From: a virus
Lineage: Duplodnaviria > Caudoviricetes
Strand: one strand, 5' to 3'
Virus record (IMG/VR): IMGVR_UViG_3300022201_000072
Coordinates: 1 to 57,371 of that record
Length of the DNA stretch: 57,371 nucleotides
In this document: one piece after another, positions 19,801 through 47,877 of the stretch
Layout of the letters: each line of letters opens with the position of its first letter
How positions within the stretch are numbered: the stretch's first letter is position 1
Made by a program: the position numbers and the translations under genes
The notes under the pieces: model-generated
Told to the model about the DNA's origin: nothing
The model's input: only the letters and a program-made list of their open reading frames with translations
Databases searched by the model: none

Positions 19801-22011
19801 ATGGGAACTAAACTAACTATCGATTTTGAAACTCGTAGTGAATGTGATCTACGTAAATCAGGAGCCTGGAAGTACTCGGAACACCCAAGTACAGAGGTTA
19901 TATGTATGGCTATGAAGGTTAATGATAGACCCCCGGTTATCTGGATCAATCAAGCTATCGTTAAAGAGGCGTTCAGTTTGCCTATAATCTCAACAGAAAG
20001 TGCGCAACAGCTGCTATTGACAGCGGGTATTATCGAAGCGCATAACGCAGAGTTTGAACAAGCAGTTTACATAAACGTGATGATAAAAAAATACGATTGG
20101 CCTGAATTAATAGATAAAAAAGAAACCTCAGAATGGAGATGTTCGGCAGCTAAAGCGGCGGCTCATGCATTACCAAGGTCATTAGACGGGGCTTGTAAAG
20201 CGCTTAATCTTTCGGTTCAGAAAGATATGGAGGGCCACAAGATAATGATGAGACTTTGTAAACCTAAAAAACCGTCTAAAAAAGATCCCAGTATATGGGA
20301 CGAAGACCCGGAAAAGTTTCGTAAACTGCTAAAGTATTGCTTGAGAGACGTTGAATCAGAATATGCCATATCTGAAAGTCTGAGAGGTCTTGACCCGATA
20401 GAACAAAGAATATGGGATATCGATCAAAAAATAAACGCCCGTGGTATATATGTAGATCTTGACGGCATCGCAAATATAGTGCGTATGGTGGAACATTTTG
20501 AAAGTGAACTATCAACCGAAGCTTACGAGATAACAGAACACGCTATTAATAGCCCCAGACAAGTAAAAGCGTTTAGAGAATGGCTGAAATCAGAAGGTTT
20601 AGAAGCGCCAAATTTACAAAAACAGACTGTAACAGATCTGCTAGCTAAAGAGTTACCGGGAGACTTAAACGATAAAGGCGGTAAAGTCAGACGAATGCTA
20701 GAGATACGTCAACGACTGTCAAAAAGCTCCACTTCTAAATTTAAAAAGTTTTTAGCTATGGTGTGCAGTGACGGCAGAGTGAGGGGAACAATGATGTATC
20801 ACGGCGCTAGTACTGGCCGTTGGTCCGGGAAAGGAATACAGCCCCAAAACATGCCAAGGGGGACGTATAAAGATTCCGAAGACTGTTTACAATTCGTAGC
20901 TAAAAACGAATACGGCGTAATCGATGCGCTCTATGACTCTCCTGCAATAGCCGCCTCAAAGTTAATAAGGGCTGTTATAATGGCGGCTCCGGGGCACGAT
21001 CTTATATGTGCGGATTATAAGGGAATAGAGATGCGCGTTCTTGCTTGGCTGGCTGGATCTACTTGGCGGCTGAAAGCTATTCGAGAAAATATCGATTTAT
21101 ACAAGGTAGCTGCTATGAATACTTACGGGGTCGAATATGACGACGTGACCGCCGAACAAAGGCAAGTCGGGAAAGTAGAAGAATTAGCATTAGGCTACCA
21201 AGGTTCATGGCCGGCATTTTCATCCATGGCAAAAAATTATGGCGTTAAACCTCCTGACGACGTAGAGCTGGCTAAAGAGCCGGACCTTTTACATGAGGGC
21301 GCTCATTATACCGAACGGTTTTTAGAGGCTCATAAAGAAGAAACAAAAGAGTACAATAGAGATTGGAGACATAACGGCAGAACTTTGTCCGAAACAGACG
21401 CCAAGTTTAAAAAATGGGCCGCCCCCATTGTCAAATCGTGGAGAGATAACAACCCAGAAATAAAACAAATGTGGTGGGATTTTGAAGGGGCGGCACTAGA
21501 AGCGGTTAAGTCCGGCAGAACGCAGCGTGTAGGTAAGATTTTATTCGGAGTAAAAAGAAACTTTTTATGGATGCGGTTACCATCTGGTAGAAGATTAGCT
21601 TATTATGATCCAGAAATAAAATCAAAAATAATGCCGTGGAAAAAGATAGAAACCGATCCTGATACCGGTGAAGAGATAGAGGTTGATGTGTACAGAGATG
21701 TTGTAACGTATATGGGAATCGATTCTAAATCGAATTCAAAAAAATGGGAAAGAATCTCATCACACGGGGGCAAATGGGTTGAAAATGCTGTTTCAGGCAT
21801 ATCAAGAGACATAATGGCTGAATCAATGCCAAGGCTCGAAAAAGCTAAATACAGCATAATAATGCATGTTCATGACGAGATTTTAAGCGAAGTCCCAGAA
21901 AACTTCGGTTCACTAGAAGCTTTTGAAAATCTAATGGCCACGCCTCCGATTTGGGCGAAAGATTGTCCTATAGAAGCGGAAGGATGGAGAGGAAAAAGGT
22001 ATAGAAAATGA
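19801..22011 (+). CDS. Family A DNA polymerase (3'-5' exonuclease + polymerase; Leu at the 762-equivalent position)
   Basis: IDFET, AHNAEFE, YCLRDV, TGRWSG, DYKGIEMR, RQVGKVEELALGY, HVHDEI. Confidence 0.95.
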   Translation: MGTKLTIDFETRSECDLRKSGAWKYSEHPSTEVICMAMKVNDRPPVIWINQAIVKEAFSLPIISTESAQQLLLTAGIIEAHNAEFEQAVYINVMIKKYDWPELIDKKETSEWRCSAAKAAAHALPRSLDGACKALNLSVQKDMEGHKIMMRLCKPKKPSKKDPSIWDEDPEKFRKLLKYCLRDVESEYAISESLRGLDPIEQRIWDIDQKINARGIYVDLDGIANIVRMVEHFESELSTEAYEITEHAINSPRQVKAFREWLKSEGLEAPNLQKQTVTDLLAKELPGDLNDKGGKVRRMLEIRQRLSKSSTSKFKKFLAMVCSDGRVRGTMMYHGASTGRWSGKGIQPQNMPRGTYKDSEDCLQFVAKNEYGVIDALYDSPAIAASKLIRAVIMAAPGHDLICADYKGIEMRVLAWLAGSTWRLKAIRENIDLYKVAAMNTYGVEYDDVTAEQRQVGKVEELALGYQGSWPAFSSMAKNYGVKPPDDVELAKEPDLLHEGAHYTERFLEAHKEETKEYNRDWRHNGRTLSETDAKFKKWAAPIVKSWRDNNPEIKQMWWDFEGAALEAVKSGRTQRVGKILFGVKRNFLWMRLPSGRRLAYYDPEIKSKIMPWKKIETDPDTGEEIEVDVYRDVVTYMGIDSKSNSKKWERISSHGGKWVENAVSGISRDIMAESMPRLEKAKYSIIMHVHDEILSEVPENFGSLEAFENLMATPPIWAKDCPIEAEGWRGKRYRK

Positions 22012-22301
22012 ATTTATCAATAGAAATAGAAGCGTATAGCAAGACTTGCCCGCACGTAATGGAGGATGGAGTCGTACAAAACTGCTTTACTTCTAGCTGT
22101 ATGGGCTGGATTGAAGTATACCCAAGAATCAAGATGGAAAACCATTCTGGCGCTTATGAAAATCTCGTTAGCCATGCTGTCAAAAGGAAATGGTGTGCGC
22201 AAGCTCCGAGAAAAGAAGGGCCTGACAACAGTTCAGGTTTTGTAGTATTGGATGCCGTCGGCTATTGCGGAAAAAACAACTATCAAGCAGGTCAAAAATG
22301 A
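22008..22301 (+). CDS. Cys-containing hypothetical protein
   Basis: KTCP..C..SCMGW...GYCG; ATGA coupling at both ends. Confidence 0.7.
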   Translation: MNLSIEIEAYSKTCPHVMEDGVVQNCFTSSCMGWIEVYPRIKMENHSGAYENLVSHAVKRKWCAQAPRKEGPDNSSGFVVLDAVGYCGKNNYQAGQK

Positions 22302-22597
22302 AAATATCTAAAATAAATGAAAAGAAATTATCAGAAGATCTAATTTCTATAAGTTATGACGTGGGCCCGGATCATTCTGGCTATTGGGAGATAGATCGAG
22401 ATATGCTAAATTTGATCAGAACGTTTCAAGAAAGCGACGGAACATATATGTGGCAACCTGGACTAGGTCTTTACGAGTATAATACGTTATTAGGAAGGCC
22501 CATAAAAAAAATTGATAAAGGTATCTACCTTGTGTATATAACTAAATTCGGCACGAAACACAAGAAACGATTTGATTTAATAAAATATTTTAGATAG
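22298..22597 (+). CDS. 99-aa protein containing an HK97 major-capsid-like segment
   Basis: IRTFQESDGTYMWQPGLG..NTLLGRP aligns with MCP LRTLQGSDGHYIWQSSLG..NLIAGDP. Confidence 0.75.
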   Translation: MKISKINEKKLSEDLISISYDVGPDHSGYWEIDRDMLNLIRTFQESDGTYMWQPGLGLYEYNTLLGRPIKKIDKGIYLVYITKFGTKHKKRFDLIKYFR

Positions 22598-22604
22598 CAA
22601 TTAA

Positions 22605-22907
22605 CTAATCATTTAATTTAGGGATGATAATTCTGCCGAATATTGAAATCAAAGGGGCCACCTCGTTTCTTAACTCGTCGACCTCCTTTTGAAGATCTTC
22701 AATTTTTACCTCGTTTTTACAACAGGCCCTATCTGTATTCTTTGCTATTGTGCGGGAGTTTAATAGCTCGCCCGCAACTTTCATCTGAAAAACTTCAAGC
22801 TTTTTCTCAGTTTTAAGATGCATCCACAACAGACAAAGAATCCCTAGAAATATATGAGCTTGGTAGTCTTTGAAGATTATTTTCAAAATCGGCAGAACCT
22901 CTAACAT
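22605..22907 (-). CDS. TM + coiled-coil protein, holin-like
   Basis: One TM helix then coiled coil; last gene of the late operon; AGGAG RBS. Confidence 0.5.
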   Translation of the reverse strand: MLEVLPILKIIFKDYQAHIFLGILCLLWMHLKTEKKLEVFQMKVAGELLNSRTIAKNTDRACCKNEVKIEDLQKEVDELRNEVAPLISIFGRIIIPKLND

Positions 22908-23114
22908 GATCTCCTTTTTTACATTGTTTTAGCGTTCATCTCGATACGCACGTTAGCCAGTGCAGCATCTCTAGCGGCAGCGGTTGAGAATATCCATTTT
23001 TGAAAAGGGTTTGCCGTGCTTTTCATAAAAAAGTCAATATCATATGACGCAGGAGGGCCAATAATATCAACAGAGCATACGCTGATATGTCACTTTTATC
23101 TGATTATTTAATGT

Positions 23115-23777
23115 TTACTTAACCAACTCCGCTGTAAGTTTTATTTTTTGTGGAACTTTGCCGCTATCTGCCGCCACTAGACCGTCCATCTTTACCGGAT
23201 CTGTCTCATTCAACAATTCGGTCCTGTTGATGCCAGTGCCTTGATGGATTTCAAATCCAAATACATTGGCAAAATTGTCAATGCCAGCCTTCAGCGCCTG
23301 CATTGCTGGTAGGTTAGTATCAATGGCCACTCGTGCATCATCAATAGCCGCAAATCTTGGGTCAGTAGGAGGAACGCCTTGGTTGATGAGATCTTGTTCT
23401 GTTTGATCGATATTGGCTCTGAAATCCAAAACAGCCCTGTCATAAACAATACCGCATGTATGAATTGATGGATTATATAACCATACGCACCTATGCTCCC
23501 CGCAACAAACCTGGAATATGGCTTCATGGGTGAAATGATTACCGTAGTATTCTCCATCCGGGCCTACCCAGTAGGACCACACGCCGATTGCTGAGTACTT
23601 TCCAGGAGGAAGTGTAACGCTAGCATGGCCGTTCGGAGCGTGGATGACAAGATACTCCATTCCTGCATATTCAAGTAATGTTCCATCACAATTGAAAATC
23701 GTGATATACCAGTCGCGATTATCAACCTTGCATGGTTGATCCATTTGCGAAACAAAAAATTGAACTTCTGATAACAT
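23115..23777 (-). CDS. Hypothetical protein, Cys/His-rich beta-sandwich-like N-terminal half
   Basis: GHASVTLPPGKY; several C/H residues; AGGAG RBS. Confidence 0.7.
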   Translation of the reverse strand: MLSEVQFFVSQMDQPCKVDNRDWYITIFNCDGTLLEYAGMEYLVIHAPNGHASVTLPPGKYSAIGVWSYWVGPDGEYYGNHFTHEAIFQVCCGEHRCVWLYNPSIHTCGIVYDRAVLDFRANIDQTEQDLINQGVPPTDPRFAAIDDARVAIDTNLPAMQALKAGIDNFANVFGFEIHQGTGINRTELLNETDPVKMDGLVAADSGKVPQKIKLTAELVK

Positions 23778-23785
23778 AATTTCTC

Positions 23786-23941
23786 CTATTTTTTTTCAGA
23801 TTGAAGCTCTTTTAATTTCACTTCAATCTTTTTTAAAATGCCTTCTGCTACTATCATAGCAGAGGAATTGCCAGGCGTGAATTTAGCCTCAGCGAAAGAT
23901 TTATAAATAAGTTCAAGCTCTTCTTTTGTTAAATTTTCCAT
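23786..23941 (-). CDS. Small helical protein after the fibre gene (51 aa), not in the ORF track; possible fibre chaperone
   Basis: Hand-translated MENLTKEELELIYKSF...; AAGGA RBS. Confidence 0.6.
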   Translation of the reverse strand: MENLTKEELELIYKSFAEAKFTPGNSSAMIVAEGILKKIEVKLKELQSEKK

Positions 23942-23953
23942 AAAATCCTTTGG

Positions 23954-26900
23954 TTAAATTAAAACATCAACGTGAAAATTACAATAATACAGCGCATTAT
24001 TACCTGCTTGTACAAACTCAATGATAATGCCCTCTCCTAATGATCCTGACACTGTGTAACCAATATTTGTCCTTGTATAATCAATATATCCATTGGCATC
24101 CATAGCAGTATCTACCCCATAATCTGTCGCCATATCAACGATTTTTGTTGATGGCCTTCCAGTAAACCCAATGCCAGAATAAACCCATCCAGTAGCAGTG
24201 TGCGCCCACAAAATAATATTTGTATTAGAAACACTAGCAGCAGCCTTGCCGTCTGCCTCAAAATCTTCAACTAAAAAGTCCCTGTTTCTGAATGTATCGG
24301 CCTTTGCTACTCCATAATTGAATGAGAACGAGCCACTTGCCCCGGTTAACGTGTATGTGACTTGTCCCAGCCATCTTTTTGCCGTCTGAAAATATTGATT
24401 GGTTGATACCAAAAGAGTATCTGCAATTAAGATCTCTGAGTCACTTGTAGTTCTTGTCCCATCGTCTGCTATGGAAGTGCCTGATACTGTCAATACTTGG
24501 GTTGCTCCAGCTTGCGCTCCAACTACACAGTAAGCATGAGCGCCCAACGCCCTATTTACATCGCCAAAAACTTGGGTCACTGTGCCCCCTATAGTCAATG
24601 TTGCTCCTATTGTTGAATACTCATAGAATCCAGCAATAAAATTATTGTCAGTTGATCCATAGTCGCCCATCGTATATGATTTAGTCAGAATAGTAGAACC
24701 GACCGCACCCTTTGCCGGTTGGTCCCCTATTGAGCGTGCTTCTTTGAATCGTGCCTGTGTCTGATCATCCAAAGCAGTTGCCCCCTGCTTTAGTGCTATC
24801 CACCCGCGCAACACTGCACCCTCGATCAACTGTCCAGGTGATTCAATTATATCTTCCCCAGCAGCCCCAATAGCTTCACCCATTGAATTATAGATAGTCT
24901 GTCCATATGTTATTGCTAAGAGTTGGGACACTGGATAGTAATACAACCTTTGGAGAGTATACTTATCTGTTGGGACGGCAGTCTTTGCACCACTATTATC
25001 GTAGTTGTCTGGATCAATATCTGTTTGAATATCTGCCACATCAGCATCCTGTAACAAATACCAGTACGTCCCTATTGTTGTTTGTGCTGCATCGGTATGA
25101 ACGTTTGGAGATGTTGGGTTGCCAAGATTGTCAGCAGCATATCTGTAGGTTACTCCAGCAGATTTGTCAAGTAGCAGATTTGCTCCATTCGCGCTATAAA
25201 CATTGCCCCGTTTATTCATCGACCCTAATATATACGAAAGATCATTGGCAACATATCCCTGTCCTGTTGCTGAAGTTGTATATTGTCCTACGGCAGTAAC
25301 TGAATCTGTCACTCCATCTCCCCAACATCTTCCAACGATTGCAATTGTTCGTTTTTCAAGTTGTGTGAACTCGACATCGAATACGAATTCTCCAATTCCA
25401 GCAGTAGAAGATTCCTGGACTCCTATCCAAACAATAAAATCGGGAGATCCGAGATTTGGATCTATAGTTTGTTCATCCCAAGATATCTCCCGTATATTAG
25501 GAGATCCTGGAGTTGAATAATCGGCTATCAACGCCTTGCCAGCCGTCACATCTATCAATGAATCGTCAACACCATTGATAGAAAGATTTCCACCTTCCAG
25601 CACCCCTGTCGTAAGGTTGGTGATTATATCGTCAGAATCAACGACGGAACCGGTAAAGACAATTTTACCGTCTACTGAAAGACCATATTTTGTAGTGTCC
25701 TTCAATGCAATATCTTCCCTTTTCAGATACGGATAAATATCGGTTCCGTCGTTGACCTGTACCCCCCATATTGCGAAAGTGCTTGTTGAGTTATGGGTAA
25801 AATCGAGCCATTCACCAACGCTTGCACCAGCAGTTAAAGTCCTGCTGTATCTTTGCCAACCGTCACCAGATATGAAGATATTGGATGCACCACCATCAGC
25901 TAAATCGATAATAAGTATATTGTTGGTGCCAGATATAAATTTTGCCCAAAAGGAAACGGTATAGGTATTTCCGTTGACGATACCGAGCCCGCTTTGACGC
26001 AATCCCAAACCGGCAATATCCCATTGGACGTTGTCTACAAATTCGCCGTTCGGCCCTGTTGTAGCATTTGGTATAATTGTAGTATTGCCCAAGCCGTCCA
26101 CCCATACAGCATTTGTTAAATCTTCCGACCATCTTATCCTATTCTGGAGTCTGCCAAAACCACCGAATGCGTCTGTATCGCTGTCTAATGTGCATCTTGA
26201 CCATACTCTACCACTTGATTCACCTGTATTGATATACAGTGAACTATTTTCATCATTGACTCTTATTGCGACGCTTCCCGGAGGCTCAAAAAGAGATGAA
26301 CCAGGATTATAGTTAATAAGGTACAATTCAGACTCTACAGAAGAGCTTGCAAACTTTATAGGCCCGGCAAAATTTCCAATATTTAATGAAGTCGACTGAG
26401 CCTCAATATTAAATGTTGAAACATCTTCATCATAGTATATTTGAGATTGAATGAAACCAGCGGACGTTCGAAAATTAACCTCCGCATTACCGGCAGTTGT
26501 AACCGGTTTTAATTCCAAAGCGGTTGAATTTGTATCAATTACTAGGGTTGCTGTTCGGGTATCAGTAATAGAATTACCGGTGGTAGTGTCGAAAATAGCT
26601 AAGGCATTAAGTGTGGAACTTTCGTCATCTTTTGTAATTCCAACATTCCATCCGGTAGTTCCGCCGTCTACTCTCTTAAGATAGAAATTAGAACTTGTTC
26701 CGGCATCTCTTATTGCAAAAGCACCGCCATTGCCTGTTATATTTCCCAATGGTGAACGGCCTGTTACAAACAAATCTATAGTTCCGCCATTTGTTCCTGT
26801 TTTTACAAATTGGACCATTTCTTCAGTGTCAGCAGTAGAATTATTGAAATATAATCTACCACCATTCGCCGCAACATCTATTCTTAATAATGAAGTGGTA

Positions 26901-46671: not shown

Positions 46672-47877
46672 TTACGCTTTTATCTTTAATGCAACAAAAG
46701 CTTCAGGAAGAACGACTTGACCGGTATTATACCGATAAAAGGTCATCTCAATTATGGCCTTTCTCTTCTGTGAGTAATCGTCTCTTATCACAGTCATACC
46801 GGTTCTATCTATAACGGTATACCCCCGCATAAAATCGGCATAAATTATAGGCAGCGCTCCAACGGCTATGCTAGGCATATCTTGCATAAGAATATACGGG
46901 TCGCCAGCAATTAAATTGGGTGCAGAGGGGCCCAAACTAGATTGCCATATATAATGTCCGTCTGACCCTTGCAAAGTCCGAAGAAAAGCCAAAGTTTGTC
47001 TATTAAAAGCAAACATTGGATTTTGGCCAACTTTCAATTGACCCGTAAGCAATAGAAGATCGTTTCCTTCAACCACGCCCGACCCGATAGTGTCAACGGC
47101 GCCTGCAACAATAGAGGCGTTTACAAGAAAACCTTCCGGCTGCTTAGATCCGGTCCCCAGTACAAATTTATTCCCTTCCTTTTGCGCGAAAGCTAAAGCG
47201 TTATCTGAATTAATTTCAGCTTCCAGAGGGAACTCCGAATCTCCTAATTGATCGGCTGTATAACCGACGGTATTTGTCAATCTATACGCCGTCATTTGCT
47301 CATTGGCGTATACACTTTGACTGTCCTGGCCTTCTTCGGCCTCACCCTCGTAAAACGCCTCTGGAATGGTTGTTCTTACTGCCATCTCGAAAGTCTTTTT
47401 TGATACGGTCTTTACCCTAGATACTTGACGAACTGGAGAGATTTCGATAATCTCTTTCAGCATTACGCTATCCATTTCAGTTGTGGTTAGATATCCACCG
47501 GTTGGACCGCTATCCATTCGCAACACCTTTCTTTCTTCAAGCGCAAGCTCTTCGTGGCCAAAACGCATCGCCTTCATTAACGACTTGTATTCTGGGGTGT
47601 CTTTATAGCTGCCAATACCGCGTTGGGCGCTTTTAGCGACTACAAGCTCTAAAGATTCAATCCTTTCTTTTAACTCAATGGCTTTCTTTTTTTCTTCAGT
47701 TAATTCCGACACAATGGAAGCGCTCTTTTTTTCGTTCGCTTCCAACGTTGCTGAAACTCGGTCAACAGCCTCTTTGTAATCATTTGACTCTTTTCCGTAA
47801 TTCTCGAATTTTACTCTCAATTCATCGACCGCCGCTTTTACATCCTCCGGCTGTACGTTTTTAGATTCATCTCCCAT
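46672..47877 (-). CDS. HK97-fold major capsid protein with delta domain
   Basis: N-terminal coiled coil, GGYL, FVLGTGSKQPEG, SDGHYIWQ, ADFMRGY. Confidence 0.95.
   Translation of the reverse strand: MGDESKNVQPEDVKAAVDELRVKFENYGKESNDYKEAVDRVSATLEANEKKSASIVSELTEEKKKAIELKERIESLELVVAKSAQRGIGSYKDTPEYKSLMKAMRFGHEELALEERKVLRMDSGPTGGYLTTTEMDSVMLKEIIEISPVRQVSRVKTVSKKTFEMAVRTTIPEAFYEGEAEEGQDSQSVYANEQMTAYRLTNTVGYTADQLGDSEFPLEAEINSDNALAFAQKEGNKFVLGTGSKQPEGFLVNASIVAGAVDTIGSGVVEGNDLLLLTGQLKVGQNPMFAFNRQTLAFLRTLQGSDGHYIWQSSLGPSAPNLIAGDPYILMQDMPSIAVGALPIIYADFMRGYTVIDRTGMTVIRDDYSQKRKAIIEMTFYRYNTGQVVLPEAFVALKIKA

What the first reader, a model, noticed from the sequence alone, without database searches (positions are those of the whole stretch)
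22298..22597. Mini-protein carrying a major-capsid segment, encoded in the replication arm (candidate capsid decoy)
Seen: WEIDRDMLNLIRTFQESDGTYMWQPGLGLYEYNTLLGRPI aligns without gaps to this phage's own MCP segment FAFNRQTLAFLRTLQGSDGHYIWQSSLGPSAPNLIAGDPY (~47014-46895) with 16/40 identities, and fits the HK97 A-domain pattern LRxLxDxDGxYxWQP..TLLGxP. The gene is intact, translationally coupled to the polymerase operon, on the opposite strand and 24 kb from the head genes, so it should be expressed before the MCP. Established: several defences sense capsid proteins (CapRel-SJ46, Lit, PifA), and satellites use capsid homologs (Ccm) to redirect assembly. Inference: a stand-alone A-domain mimic that pre-empts capsid sensors or poisons assembly of competing HK97-type phages or satellites.
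Basis: partly seen in the sequence, partly recalled or inferred. Interest (0 to 1): 0.8.

Follow-up and report, generated by a model that had tools for sequence, protein, structure and literature searches.

The report
Stand-alone mini copy of capsid domain
An uncultured sediment phage carries, at the end of its DNA-replication genes, a small intact gene that encodes only one trimmed piece of a head-shell protein; the piece looks like a working gene with two known relatives, and it may act by imitating the shell protein, but its job is untested.

Summary
The 99-aa ORF at 22298-22597 is homologous to the conserved late segment of HK97-type major capsid proteins (MCPs). It passes the curated cut-offs of Pfam PF05065 and TIGR01554. 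Profile-profile probability is 98.7%, aligning mini residues 13-73 with own MCP residues 272-333.

It is not a wreck of a full-length capsid gene: no other MCP-like piece lies within 21000-24000 in any frame. It is not a recent copy of this phage's MCP either (33% identity, not nearest in a tree).

Two other short proteins (82 and 89 aa) from metagenomes share its ends, a loop deletion, a WE(I/L)D motif and a conserved C-terminal tail. The three group together (support 90/92). So this is a small, real family of stand-alone domain-sized capsid paralogues.

The gene has normal codon use, the lowest GC of 55 ORFs, and ATGA overlaps linking it to PolA through ORF97.

The decoy or assembly-poison function is untested. 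A 2026 paper reports that three sensor families bind the MCP A-domain, which makes a mimic role plausible. Genomic context of the two relatives could not be fetched. This scan has noted similar mini-capsid genes on other DNA, mostly in giant phages.

The parts
22298..22597 (+). Mini-capsid gene (99 aa, P0001), stop included
   Evidence: The ORF is intact. In-frame codon log-likelihood is 0.225, rank 20 of 55 ORFs, against -1.23 and -0.85 in the other two frames. GC is 32.3%, the lowest of 55 ORFs. A second assembly of the run shows the same letters.
22331..22516 (+). Core homologous to HK97-type MCPs (about residues 12-73)
   Evidence: An MCP-profile HMM matches 22331-22513, on HMM positions 258-320 of 388, with i-E 2.4e-13. 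This is the only MCP-like piece in six frames of 21000-24000. hhalign aligns residues 13-73. Pfam and TIGR01554 matches pass their cut-offs.
22517..22594 (+). Family-specific C-terminal tail (residues 74-99), modelled as a beta-hairpin
   Evidence: The tail is conserved among the three minis at 7/24, 9/20 and 8/18 identities, similar to the core. hhalign does not align it to MCPs. MAFFT places it on the MCP 'GDF..GY' strands after a loop deletion of about 9 residues. The AF2 model gives strands 76-81 and 87-91.
22289..22292 (+). Weak Shine-Dalgarno-like AGGT, 5 nt before the ATG
   Evidence: Read directly from the sequence.
22008..22301 (+). ORF97, a Cys/His-containing orphan, coupled upstream to PolA and downstream to the mini gene by ATGA overlaps
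   Evidence: It has no Pfam, PHROG, NCBIfam or PADLOC match.
19801..22011 (+). Family A DNA polymerase, the large gene of the operon that the mini gene closes
   Evidence: PF00476 matches at 88.6 bits and phrog_17 at 352 bits.
46672..47877 (-). The phage's own HK97-type major capsid protein (401 aa, P0002)
   Evidence: PF05065 scores 158.7 bits over profile positions 1-279 of 280. It lies next to an S78 protease and a portal gene.
46879..47064 (-). MCP residues 272-333, the segment homologous to the mini protein
   Evidence: Shown by hhalign, BLASTP and the search of the window's own genome.
22605..22907 (-). Last ORF of the converging late arm; its stop lies 8 bp from the mini gene's stop
   Evidence: GC skew changes sign at about 22500-22650. 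It matches no family.

Best explanation
The ORF at 22298-22597 is a real accessory gene. It encodes a stand-alone, trimmed copy of the conserved late segment of an HK97-type major capsid protein. That segment is, from recall, the axial or A domain. It corresponds to own-MCP residues 272-333 and is followed by a family-specific C-terminal hairpin.

The gene belongs to a small family of at least three members with a single origin. It is neither debris of a full-length capsid gene nor a recent duplicate of this phage's own MCP. Its low GC suggests it was picked up as a moron-like gene at the junction of the two transcription arms.

It is translationally coupled to PolA through ORF97. It should therefore be made with the replication proteins, before the head proteins; this timing is inferred.

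The most likely mode of action, also inferred, is molecular mimicry of the conserved capsomer-forming part of the capsid protein. The mini protein would occupy a partner that otherwise binds monomeric MCP. My leading candidate partner is a host capsid sensor, which it would bind without activating, acting as an antagonist decoy. The second candidate is an MCP itself, treated here as a rival explanation.

Sub-odds:
- Real gene and real family: about 0.85.
- Acts by mimicry of MCP: about 0.5.
- Sensor antagonist specifically: about 0.25-0.3.
For: Homology:
- Pfam PF05065 and TIGR01554 matches pass the curated cut-offs.
- hhalign gives 98.7% probability.
- 0 of 2000 shuffles reach the observed alignment score.

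Not debris:
- Only one MCP-like piece exists in six frames of 21000-24000.
- Codon use is typical, at rank 20 of 55, with strong frame contrast.
- Stop and start codons overlap as ATGA at both junctions.

Family:
- phmmer over 1.84 billion representatives returned 8 proteins at E<=1e-3. They were the query itself, two short proteins (P0004, 82 aa; P0006, 89 aa) covering query residues 29-89 and 10-84, three MCP-like proteins and two repeat proteins.
- All three minis match the capsid models in the same region.
- They share N and C ends, a loop deletion of about 9 residues relative to 17 MCP segments, and invariant E and D where MCPs have V/I and N.
- The tail is as conserved as the core.
- The three lie on one side of a branch with support 90/92, and the phage's own MCP is not their nearest neighbour.
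- The minis keep the MCP consensus residue in 35/64 cells of highly conserved MCP columns, against 28/94 and 3/85 in less conserved columns.

Fold:
- With the 20-row alignment, AF2 gives pLDDT 85.2 and pTM 0.73.
- The best Foldseek hits are HK97-type MCPs, with TMq 0.42-0.57 and probability up to 1.0.

Acquisition: GC is 32.3%, the lowest of 55 ORFs (mean 40.5, sd 2.9), and only 2% of 300-nt windows are as low.

Plausibility of a sensor target:
- Passages of PMC9712102 state that CapRel-SJ46 contacts an A-domain loop as well as the P-domain.
Against: - No functional test of any kind was done.
- Only three members are known. Each is a singleton cluster on one contig.
- The DNA and context of the other two could not be fetched, so selection (dN/dS) and conserved location are unknown.
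- The 120 best PolA homologues include none on a contig of 57,994 or 5,686 nt, so shared synteny is not shown.
- None of 80 loci around distant PolA relatives, and none of 5 whole related records, has a mini gene.
- The confident model leans on 17 MCP segments among its 20 rows. With the 3 family rows alone, pLDDT is 43.7.
- Foldseek E-values are modest: the best are 7.6e-3 in PDB and 4.3e-4 in BFVD.
- Net charge is not conserved, at +3.7, -8.3 and -2.5.
- Known capsid sensors are activated by binding MCP, so a mimic might trigger them.
- SeAvs7 also contacts the P-domain and E-loop, which the mini protein lacks.
- The detection of the two relatives depended on the same conserved motif, which is an ascertainment bias.
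Confidence: 0.4

Rival explanations
1. Assembly interference or control. The free domain docks on the capsomer-forming face of an MCP, which could be that of a co-infecting HK97-type phage, of a capsid-forming satellite, or the phage's own. It thereby blocks or delays hexamer and pentamer formation, acting as a dominant-negative 'microprotein'.
For: It retains the most conserved MCP residues of this segment. It is equally distant from its own MCP and from others (33% against 30-45%), so it is not tuned to its own capsid. PMC13581612 describes this A-domain region as penton- and hexon-forming. The best PDB fold hit is the capsid of a capsid-forming PICI, 9gyi, which shows that satellites use the same MCP subfamily.
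Against: No target is identified. The mini protein lacks the P-domain and E-loop that make most inter-subunit contacts (recalled). Poisoning its own assembly would be costly. The family is rare.
Confidence: 0.2
2. The capsid-derived scaffold has been exapted for an unrelated job, for example binding a replication or host protein. In that case the resemblance to MCP is only historical.
For: It is translationally coupled to PolA and ORF97 at the end of the replication operon. It has family-specific residues and a tail that MCPs lack. Charge varies among members.
Against: The residues it keeps best are exactly the MCP-conserved ones. That pattern is what fold retention or retention of an MCP-like surface would give. 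No relative near other PolA genes carries it.
Confidence: 0.15
3. Functionless leftover. A captured piece of a foreign capsid gene happens to remain open.
For: All three members are singletons. GC is the lowest in the window. It is absent from all related loci examined. No selection measure is available.
Against: Three proteins only 35-45% identical to each other keep the same start, end, deletion and tail. At that divergence an unselected frame would be broken. There is no flanking MCP debris. Codon use is normal and the start is coupled to the upstream gene.
Confidence: 0.12

Closest known systems
HK97-type major capsid proteins (Pfam PF05065, TIGR01554; phiC31 gp36-like / COG4653 group; solved examples RcGTA capsid 6tb9/6tba and cf-PICI EcCI2 capsid 9gyi)
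   Same: There is significant sequence homology over about 60 residues. A profile of the three minis matches 6tba residues 277-319 at E=2.5e-4. These proteins are also the best fold matches.
   Different: The mini protein covers only about a fifth of the family model and lacks the N-arm, E-loop, spine helix and P-domain. It carries a loop deletion and its own tail, and it sits in the replication operon. It cannot be a shell-building subunit.
Whole-gene capsid paralogues and satellite capsid homologues (T4 gp24 vertex protein; Ccm of PICIs) - recalled, not tested here
   Same: A second gene derived from the MCP, used to modify or redirect capsid assembly.
   Different: Those are full-length HK97-fold proteins that enter the lattice. 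This one is a single trimmed domain of 99 aa.
MicroProteins: small single-domain derivatives that titrate the partners of their multi-domain relatives (concept from plant and animal regulators, recalled)
   Same: Small, single-domain, derived from a larger protein's interaction domain, and encoded as a separate gene.
   Different: No interaction has been shown. The concept has not, to my knowledge, been applied to phage capsid proteins.
Mini-capsid genes noted earlier in this scan on other DNA (e1-6007789, e1-5632988, e1-5973440, e1-5934570, e1-5905476, e1-6052581, e1-5635688)
   Same: Small conserved genes descended from pieces of the phage's capsid protein, lying among non-structural genes, with function unknown.
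   Different: Most of those are in giant or T4-like phages and some carry tags or export leaders. This one is an HK97/phiC31-gp36-type segment in a phage of about 57 kb or more, with no tag seen. I read those notes but did not check them.

Membership tests
HK97-type major capsid protein (PF05065 / TIGR01554) | Sequence match to the family model above the curated cut-off | tested here: met
   PF05065 scores 30.0 bits against 24.2. TIGR01554 scores 33 bits against 27.5. Automatic annotation would therefore name this ORF a major capsid protein.
HK97-type major capsid protein (PF05065 / TIGR01554) | Complete HK97 fold (N-arm, E-loop, P-domain with spine helix, A-domain), meaning near-full coverage of the model | tested here: not met
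   It covers only profile positions 145-207 of 280 and 251-318 of 385. No other MCP-like piece lies nearby in any frame.
HK97-type major capsid protein (PF05065 / TIGR01554) | Encoded in the head module next to portal, protease or scaffold genes | tested here: not met
   It lies after PolA on the other strand. The real head module is at 46.6-51.1 kb.
Stand-alone mini-capsid family defined here (P0001, P0004, P0006) | Length of 82-99 aa, shared N and C ends, a loop deletion of about 9 residues relative to MCPs, a WE(I/L)D(R/K)(E/D) strand, and a conserved C-terminal hairpin | tested here: met
   Shown by the alignments and the conservation counts. The three lie on one side of a branch with support 90/92.
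Stand-alone mini-capsid family defined here (P0001, P0004, P0006) | Purifying selection and a conserved non-structural location | not testable with these tools
No DNA or context was obtained for P0004 or P0006. Only one sequencing run holds the window.
Satellite capsid-redirecting MCP homologues (Ccm type; recalled) | Full-length HK97-fold protein encoded by a satellite with its own integrase and packaging genes | tested here: not met
   The protein is 99 aa and single-domain. It lies in a phage genome with a full replication and virion gene set.
Known defence-system components (PADLOC-DB) | Match to a defence protein model | tested here: not met
   0 families at E<=0.1 for all three minis.
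Catalogued phage anti-defence proteins | Homology to a described anti-defence protein, or a described capsid-mimic mechanism | not tested
   No anti-defence library is on hand. In the main text of the EVADES preprint (10.1101/2025.06.06.658234, find mode) 'capsid' occurs 0 times, and the 'mimic' passages shown concern DNA mimics.

The most novel reading that the evidence does not exclude
Phages deploy stand-alone capsid A-domain 'microproteins', made early with the replication enzymes, as competitive antagonists of host sensors (Avs7/8/10-like, CapRel-like). Those sensors recognise the conserved capsomer-forming face of monomeric capsid protein. This would be counter-defence by mimicry of the phage's own molecular pattern.
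Probability: 0.2. Interest if true: 0.85.

Novelty: new variant of a known kind. Interest (0 to 1): 0.55.

Why it matters
Capsid proteins are now known to be a main molecular pattern by which bacterial immunity recognises phages. According to PMC13581612 (passages and section 12 read), several unrelated sensors converge on the same conserved A-domain surface, a surface the phage cannot easily mutate.

A small, separately encoded copy of that region, made before the capsid protein, would be an obvious way to blunt such sensors or to sabotage competitors' shells. In four literature searches and one catalogue text I found no description of such a gene.

This ORF and its two relatives give a concrete 82-99-aa reagent to test the idea in laboratory strains.

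On the practical side, the ORF passes the NCBI and Pfam capsid cut-offs. Pipelines will therefore call it a 'major capsid protein', which would mislead head-gene counts and phage classification.

Tried and rejected
Searches for relatives:
- megablast of 19801-23800 against GenBank phages found no match.
- tblastn of P0001 found 8 records, of P0006 30 records and of P0004 none. All matches lie at under 60% identity and cover at most 65% of the query. The features under them are annotated as capsid, head or hypothetical proteins.
- The word-indexed search of 5.8 billion proteins at similar length found only the query itself (1 candidate). With the 3-row profile it found only the 3 known members among 68 candidates.
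- Scans of viral, metagenome and genome contigs with P0001 or the family alignment gave 24 loci. In all 24 the match lies in a frame of 381-577 aa or in a frame cut by a contig end (L017, L021). No complete short ORF was found.
- P0004 and P0006 as single queries in viral contigs found nothing.
- A family-specific degenerate DNA pattern in viral contigs gave 0 matches.
- PolA as a single query in viral contigs found nothing.
- The PolA alignment gave 80 loci at 37% identity or less, none with a mini gene within about 8 kb.
- P0018 gave one locus, L107, with other genes after PolA.
- 0 of 5 whole related records match the family profile. The tool notes that an empty answer shows little.

Other tools that gave no lead:
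- ESM Atlas returned no usable feature hit, and its own model is poor, so its structural rows are not meaningful.
- AF2 with the 3 family rows alone gave pLDDT 43.7, which is unusable.
- Complex prediction of the mini protein with own MCP residues 120-401 gave no answer (score 0.00, controls not run). This is neither for nor against binding.
- The look-up of sequencing runs listed one DNA run, which may be the source sample (a sediment metagenome), and no RNA holder.
- Read laying only showed that a second assembly of that run covers 21000-24000 in one contig with 0 differences. This is not independent evidence.
- The terminator and promoter scan of 21500-24200 found no more sites than in shuffles.
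- PADLOC gave nothing.

Literature: searches listed no paper on stand-alone capsid-domain genes of phages. I saw only the listings of those searches. I saw passages of 10.64898/2026.01.04.697583, PMC13581612 (plus section 12), PMC9712102 and 10.1101/2025.06.06.658234. Supplements were not consulted. The supplementary data on truncated targets in PMC13581612 might say whether an isolated A-domain activates Avs7/8/10.

Considered and rejected:
- A frameshifted or split MCP pseudogene, because there are no flanking pieces.
- A recent duplication of the phage's own MCP, because identity is 33% and it is not nearest in the tree.
- An assembly chimera, because the same sequence appears in IMG, Logan and ENA records and in a single Logan contig.

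Full report
**What is there**

The window is a 57,371-nt IMG/VR viral record, classed as linear and estimated 69% complete.

- The plus-strand arm up to about 22.6 kb carries replication genes: an SNF2 helicase, a DUF2800/PD-(D/E)XK exonuclease, a gp2.5-like SSB and a family A polymerase.
- From 22.6 kb onward, genes run on the minus strand. They include a 1849-aa fibre-like protein, tail genes, the MCP (46672-47877), an S78 prohead protease and the portal.
- GC skew changes sign at about 22500-22650.
- The ORF in question, 22298-22597, is the last gene of the plus arm. Its ATG overlaps the stop of a 97-aa orphan ORF as ATGA. That ORF overlaps the PolA stop in the same way.
- A weak AGGT lies 5 nt upstream of the ATG.
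- The stop of the last minus-strand ORF is 8 bp away.

**Is the resemblance real?**

Yes.

- BLASTP gives E=3e-8 over 55 residues.
- None of 2000 shuffles of the mini protein approaches the observed local score: 81 against a maximum of 51.
- Independent family models agree. PF05065 scores 30 bits against a gathering cut-off of 24.2. TIGR01554 scores 33 bits against 27.5, on positions 251-318 of 385. phrog_10 matches weakly at E=0.01.
- A profile of the mini family against a 15-row MCP alignment gives 98.7% probability, with mini residues 13-73 aligned to own-MCP residues 272-333.
- I call this the axial (A) domain from recalled HK97 gp5 domain limits. The model's helix-strand-helix-hairpin-sheet pattern agrees, but no tool drew the border.

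**Debris or gene?**

- An HMM of full-length MCPs run over all six frames of 21000-24000, with stops read through, finds one piece only, at 22331-22513. The two other rows are noise at i-E 4.6 and 6. There is therefore no broken capsid gene around it.
- In-frame codon usage is ordinary for this phage, at rank 20 of 55 ORFs. The two other frames score strongly negative.
- GC is 32.3%, the lowest of 55 ORFs and 2.8 sd below the mean. Only 2% of 300-nt windows are as low. This fits a horizontally acquired accessory gene.
- A second assembly of the only run that holds the sequence, probably the source, covers the region in one contig without a difference.

**A family**

- The exhaustive phmmer search of 1.84 billion representatives returned 8 proteins at E<=1e-3.
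  - One is the query itself.
  - Two are large repeat proteins whose matches are repeated low-complexity stretches (P0003, P0007).
  - Three are MCP-like proteins or fragments (P0005, P0008, P0009).
  - Two are short proteins: P0004 (82 aa) and P0006 (89 aa).
- Both short proteins start with Met a few residues before the first helix and end within a few columns of P0001's end.
- P0006 passes the capsid cut-offs. P0004 falls just below, at 21.8 and 20.6 bits. Both match in the same model region.
- Aligned with 17 MCP segments, the three share several features that MCPs lack.
  - They have a gap of about 9 residues where MCPs carry the 'MPDI..G' loop.
  - They have invariant E and D, in the motif WE(I/L)D, where MCPs have V/I and N. 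This may reflect a strand that is buried in the full protein and exposed in the fragment; that reading is inference.
- Their C-terminal tails are as conserved as the core, at 29-45% against 35-45% identity.
- In a maximum-likelihood tree the three lie on one side of a branch, with support 90/92. The branch is not starred. The phage's own MCP is not their nearest row.
- The minis keep the MCP consensus in 55% of cells at strongly conserved MCP columns, against 30% and 4% elsewhere. Because they were found through this motif, that gradient is partly ascertainment.
- Each member is a singleton cluster on one contig. The contigs are 57,457, 57,994 and 5,686 nt.

**What I could not get**

The neighbours and DNA of P0004 and P0006 are therefore unknown and dN/dS cannot be computed.
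- Among the 120 best PolA homologues (44-51% identity at the top), none sits on a contig of 57,994 or 5,686 nt. One, P0043, sits on 58,006 nt, which proves nothing.
- No mini gene occurs in 80 loci around distant PolA relatives, in L107, or in five whole related records.
- The family is therefore sporadic. However, the sensitivity of a 99-aa single-sequence search in so large a library is low, so 'three' is a minimum.

**Fold**

- With only the three family rows AF2 is unsure, at pLDDT 43.7.
- With 17 MCP segments added it gives pLDDT 85.2 and pTM 0.73. The elements are helix 8-21, strand 27-32, helix 34-40, and strands 67-71, 76-81 and 87-91.
- Foldseek ranks HK97-type capsid proteins first. 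In PDB these are 9gyi, 6tb9 and 6tsu. In BFVD they are several 'phiC31 gp36-like' MCPs. TMq is 0.42-0.57.
- This is consistent with a compact isolated domain, but it is not independent of the alignment used.

**How it probably works**

Shown:
- A conserved, intact, domain-sized capsid paralogue.
- Placement at the end of the polymerase operon.

Inferred:
- Production before the head proteins.
- Action by imitation of MCP.

The idea gained weight from a 2026 paper, of which I read passages and section 12.
- Avs7, Avs8 and Avs10, despite different architectures, all bind that interface and appear to target monomers (PMC13581612).
- CapRel-SJ46 also touches an A-domain loop (PMC9712102).

A free A-domain core could compete for such sensors without supplying the P-domain and E-loop contacts that SeAvs7 also makes. 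Equally, it could trigger them, which would be self-defeating.

The rival explanations are capsomer poisoning of competitors or satellites, exaptation to an unrelated role, and a functionless leftover. I rate the sensor-antagonist reading at about 0.25-0.3, assembly interference at 0.2, exaptation at 0.15 and leftover at 0.12.

**Known or new?**

- Full-length capsid paralogues (T4 gp24) and satellite capsid homologues (Ccm) are known; this is recalled.
- I found no description of stand-alone capsid-domain genes in four searches.
- In the main text of the EVADES anti-defence catalogue preprint the word 'capsid' does not occur.
- This scan has flagged comparable mini-capsid genes in other phages, mostly giant ones. 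I did not check those notes. They suggest the phenomenon is wider than this window.
- I class it as a new variant of a known kind, namely paralogues of virion proteins. It is worth a bench test, with moderate interest because the function and even the selection on it remain unmeasured.

Noticed in passing
22008-22301 (+): ORF97 sits between PolA and the mini gene, with ATGA overlaps on both sides. It contains several Cys and His residues and matches nothing in Pfam, PHROGs, NCBIfam or PADLOC. It may be a functional partner of the mini protein.
   Followed up: partly
22221-22237 (-), inside ORF97: This is the only terminator-like hairpin downstream of the minus-strand late arm. It lies beyond the mini gene, so late transcripts might run antisense through 22298-22597. 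The scan found no more sites than in shuffles (2 against 1.7 expected), so this is weak.
   Followed up: no
BFVD hits of model me349f9e5cbdb: Several small uncharacterised phage proteins rank among the fold matches: A0A7R8R4Y4 (106 aa, prob 0.99), UPI001CE5850F (127 aa), A0A8D6UFH0 of Enterococcus phage Aramis (107 aa), A0A2H4IBH4 of Erwinia phage Y3 (125 aa) and A0A1Y0SV83 of Pseudomonas phage Noxifer (138 aa). These may be further stand-alone capsid-domain-like proteins. Their sequences could not be fetched.
   Followed up: no
22605-22907 (-): This 100-aa last ORF of the late arm has a hydrophobic N-terminal stretch and a charged, coiled-coil-like C-terminal half. It matches no family, and its stop lies 8 bp from the mini gene's stop. 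It could be a lysis-type membrane protein.
   Followed up: no
P0043 (PolA homologue): This PolA is 44% identical to the window's and lies on a 58,006-nt contig (NCBI, Logan). P0004's contig is 57,994 nt (Logan, ENA). They might be the same or a sister phage, which would place a second mini gene in a related genome. This is unresolved.
   Followed up: partly
P0003 and P0007: The second-best phmmer hit (E=4e-13, 13 stretches) and another hit are huge repeat proteins matched through short repeated stretches. They are false relatives produced by repeats, which is a reminder not to read that table by E-value alone.
   Followed up: yes
22298-22597: The ORF passes the curated cut-off of TIGR01554, an 'equivalog' model, so annotation pipelines are likely to label this 99-aa protein 'phage major capsid protein'.
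   Followed up: yes
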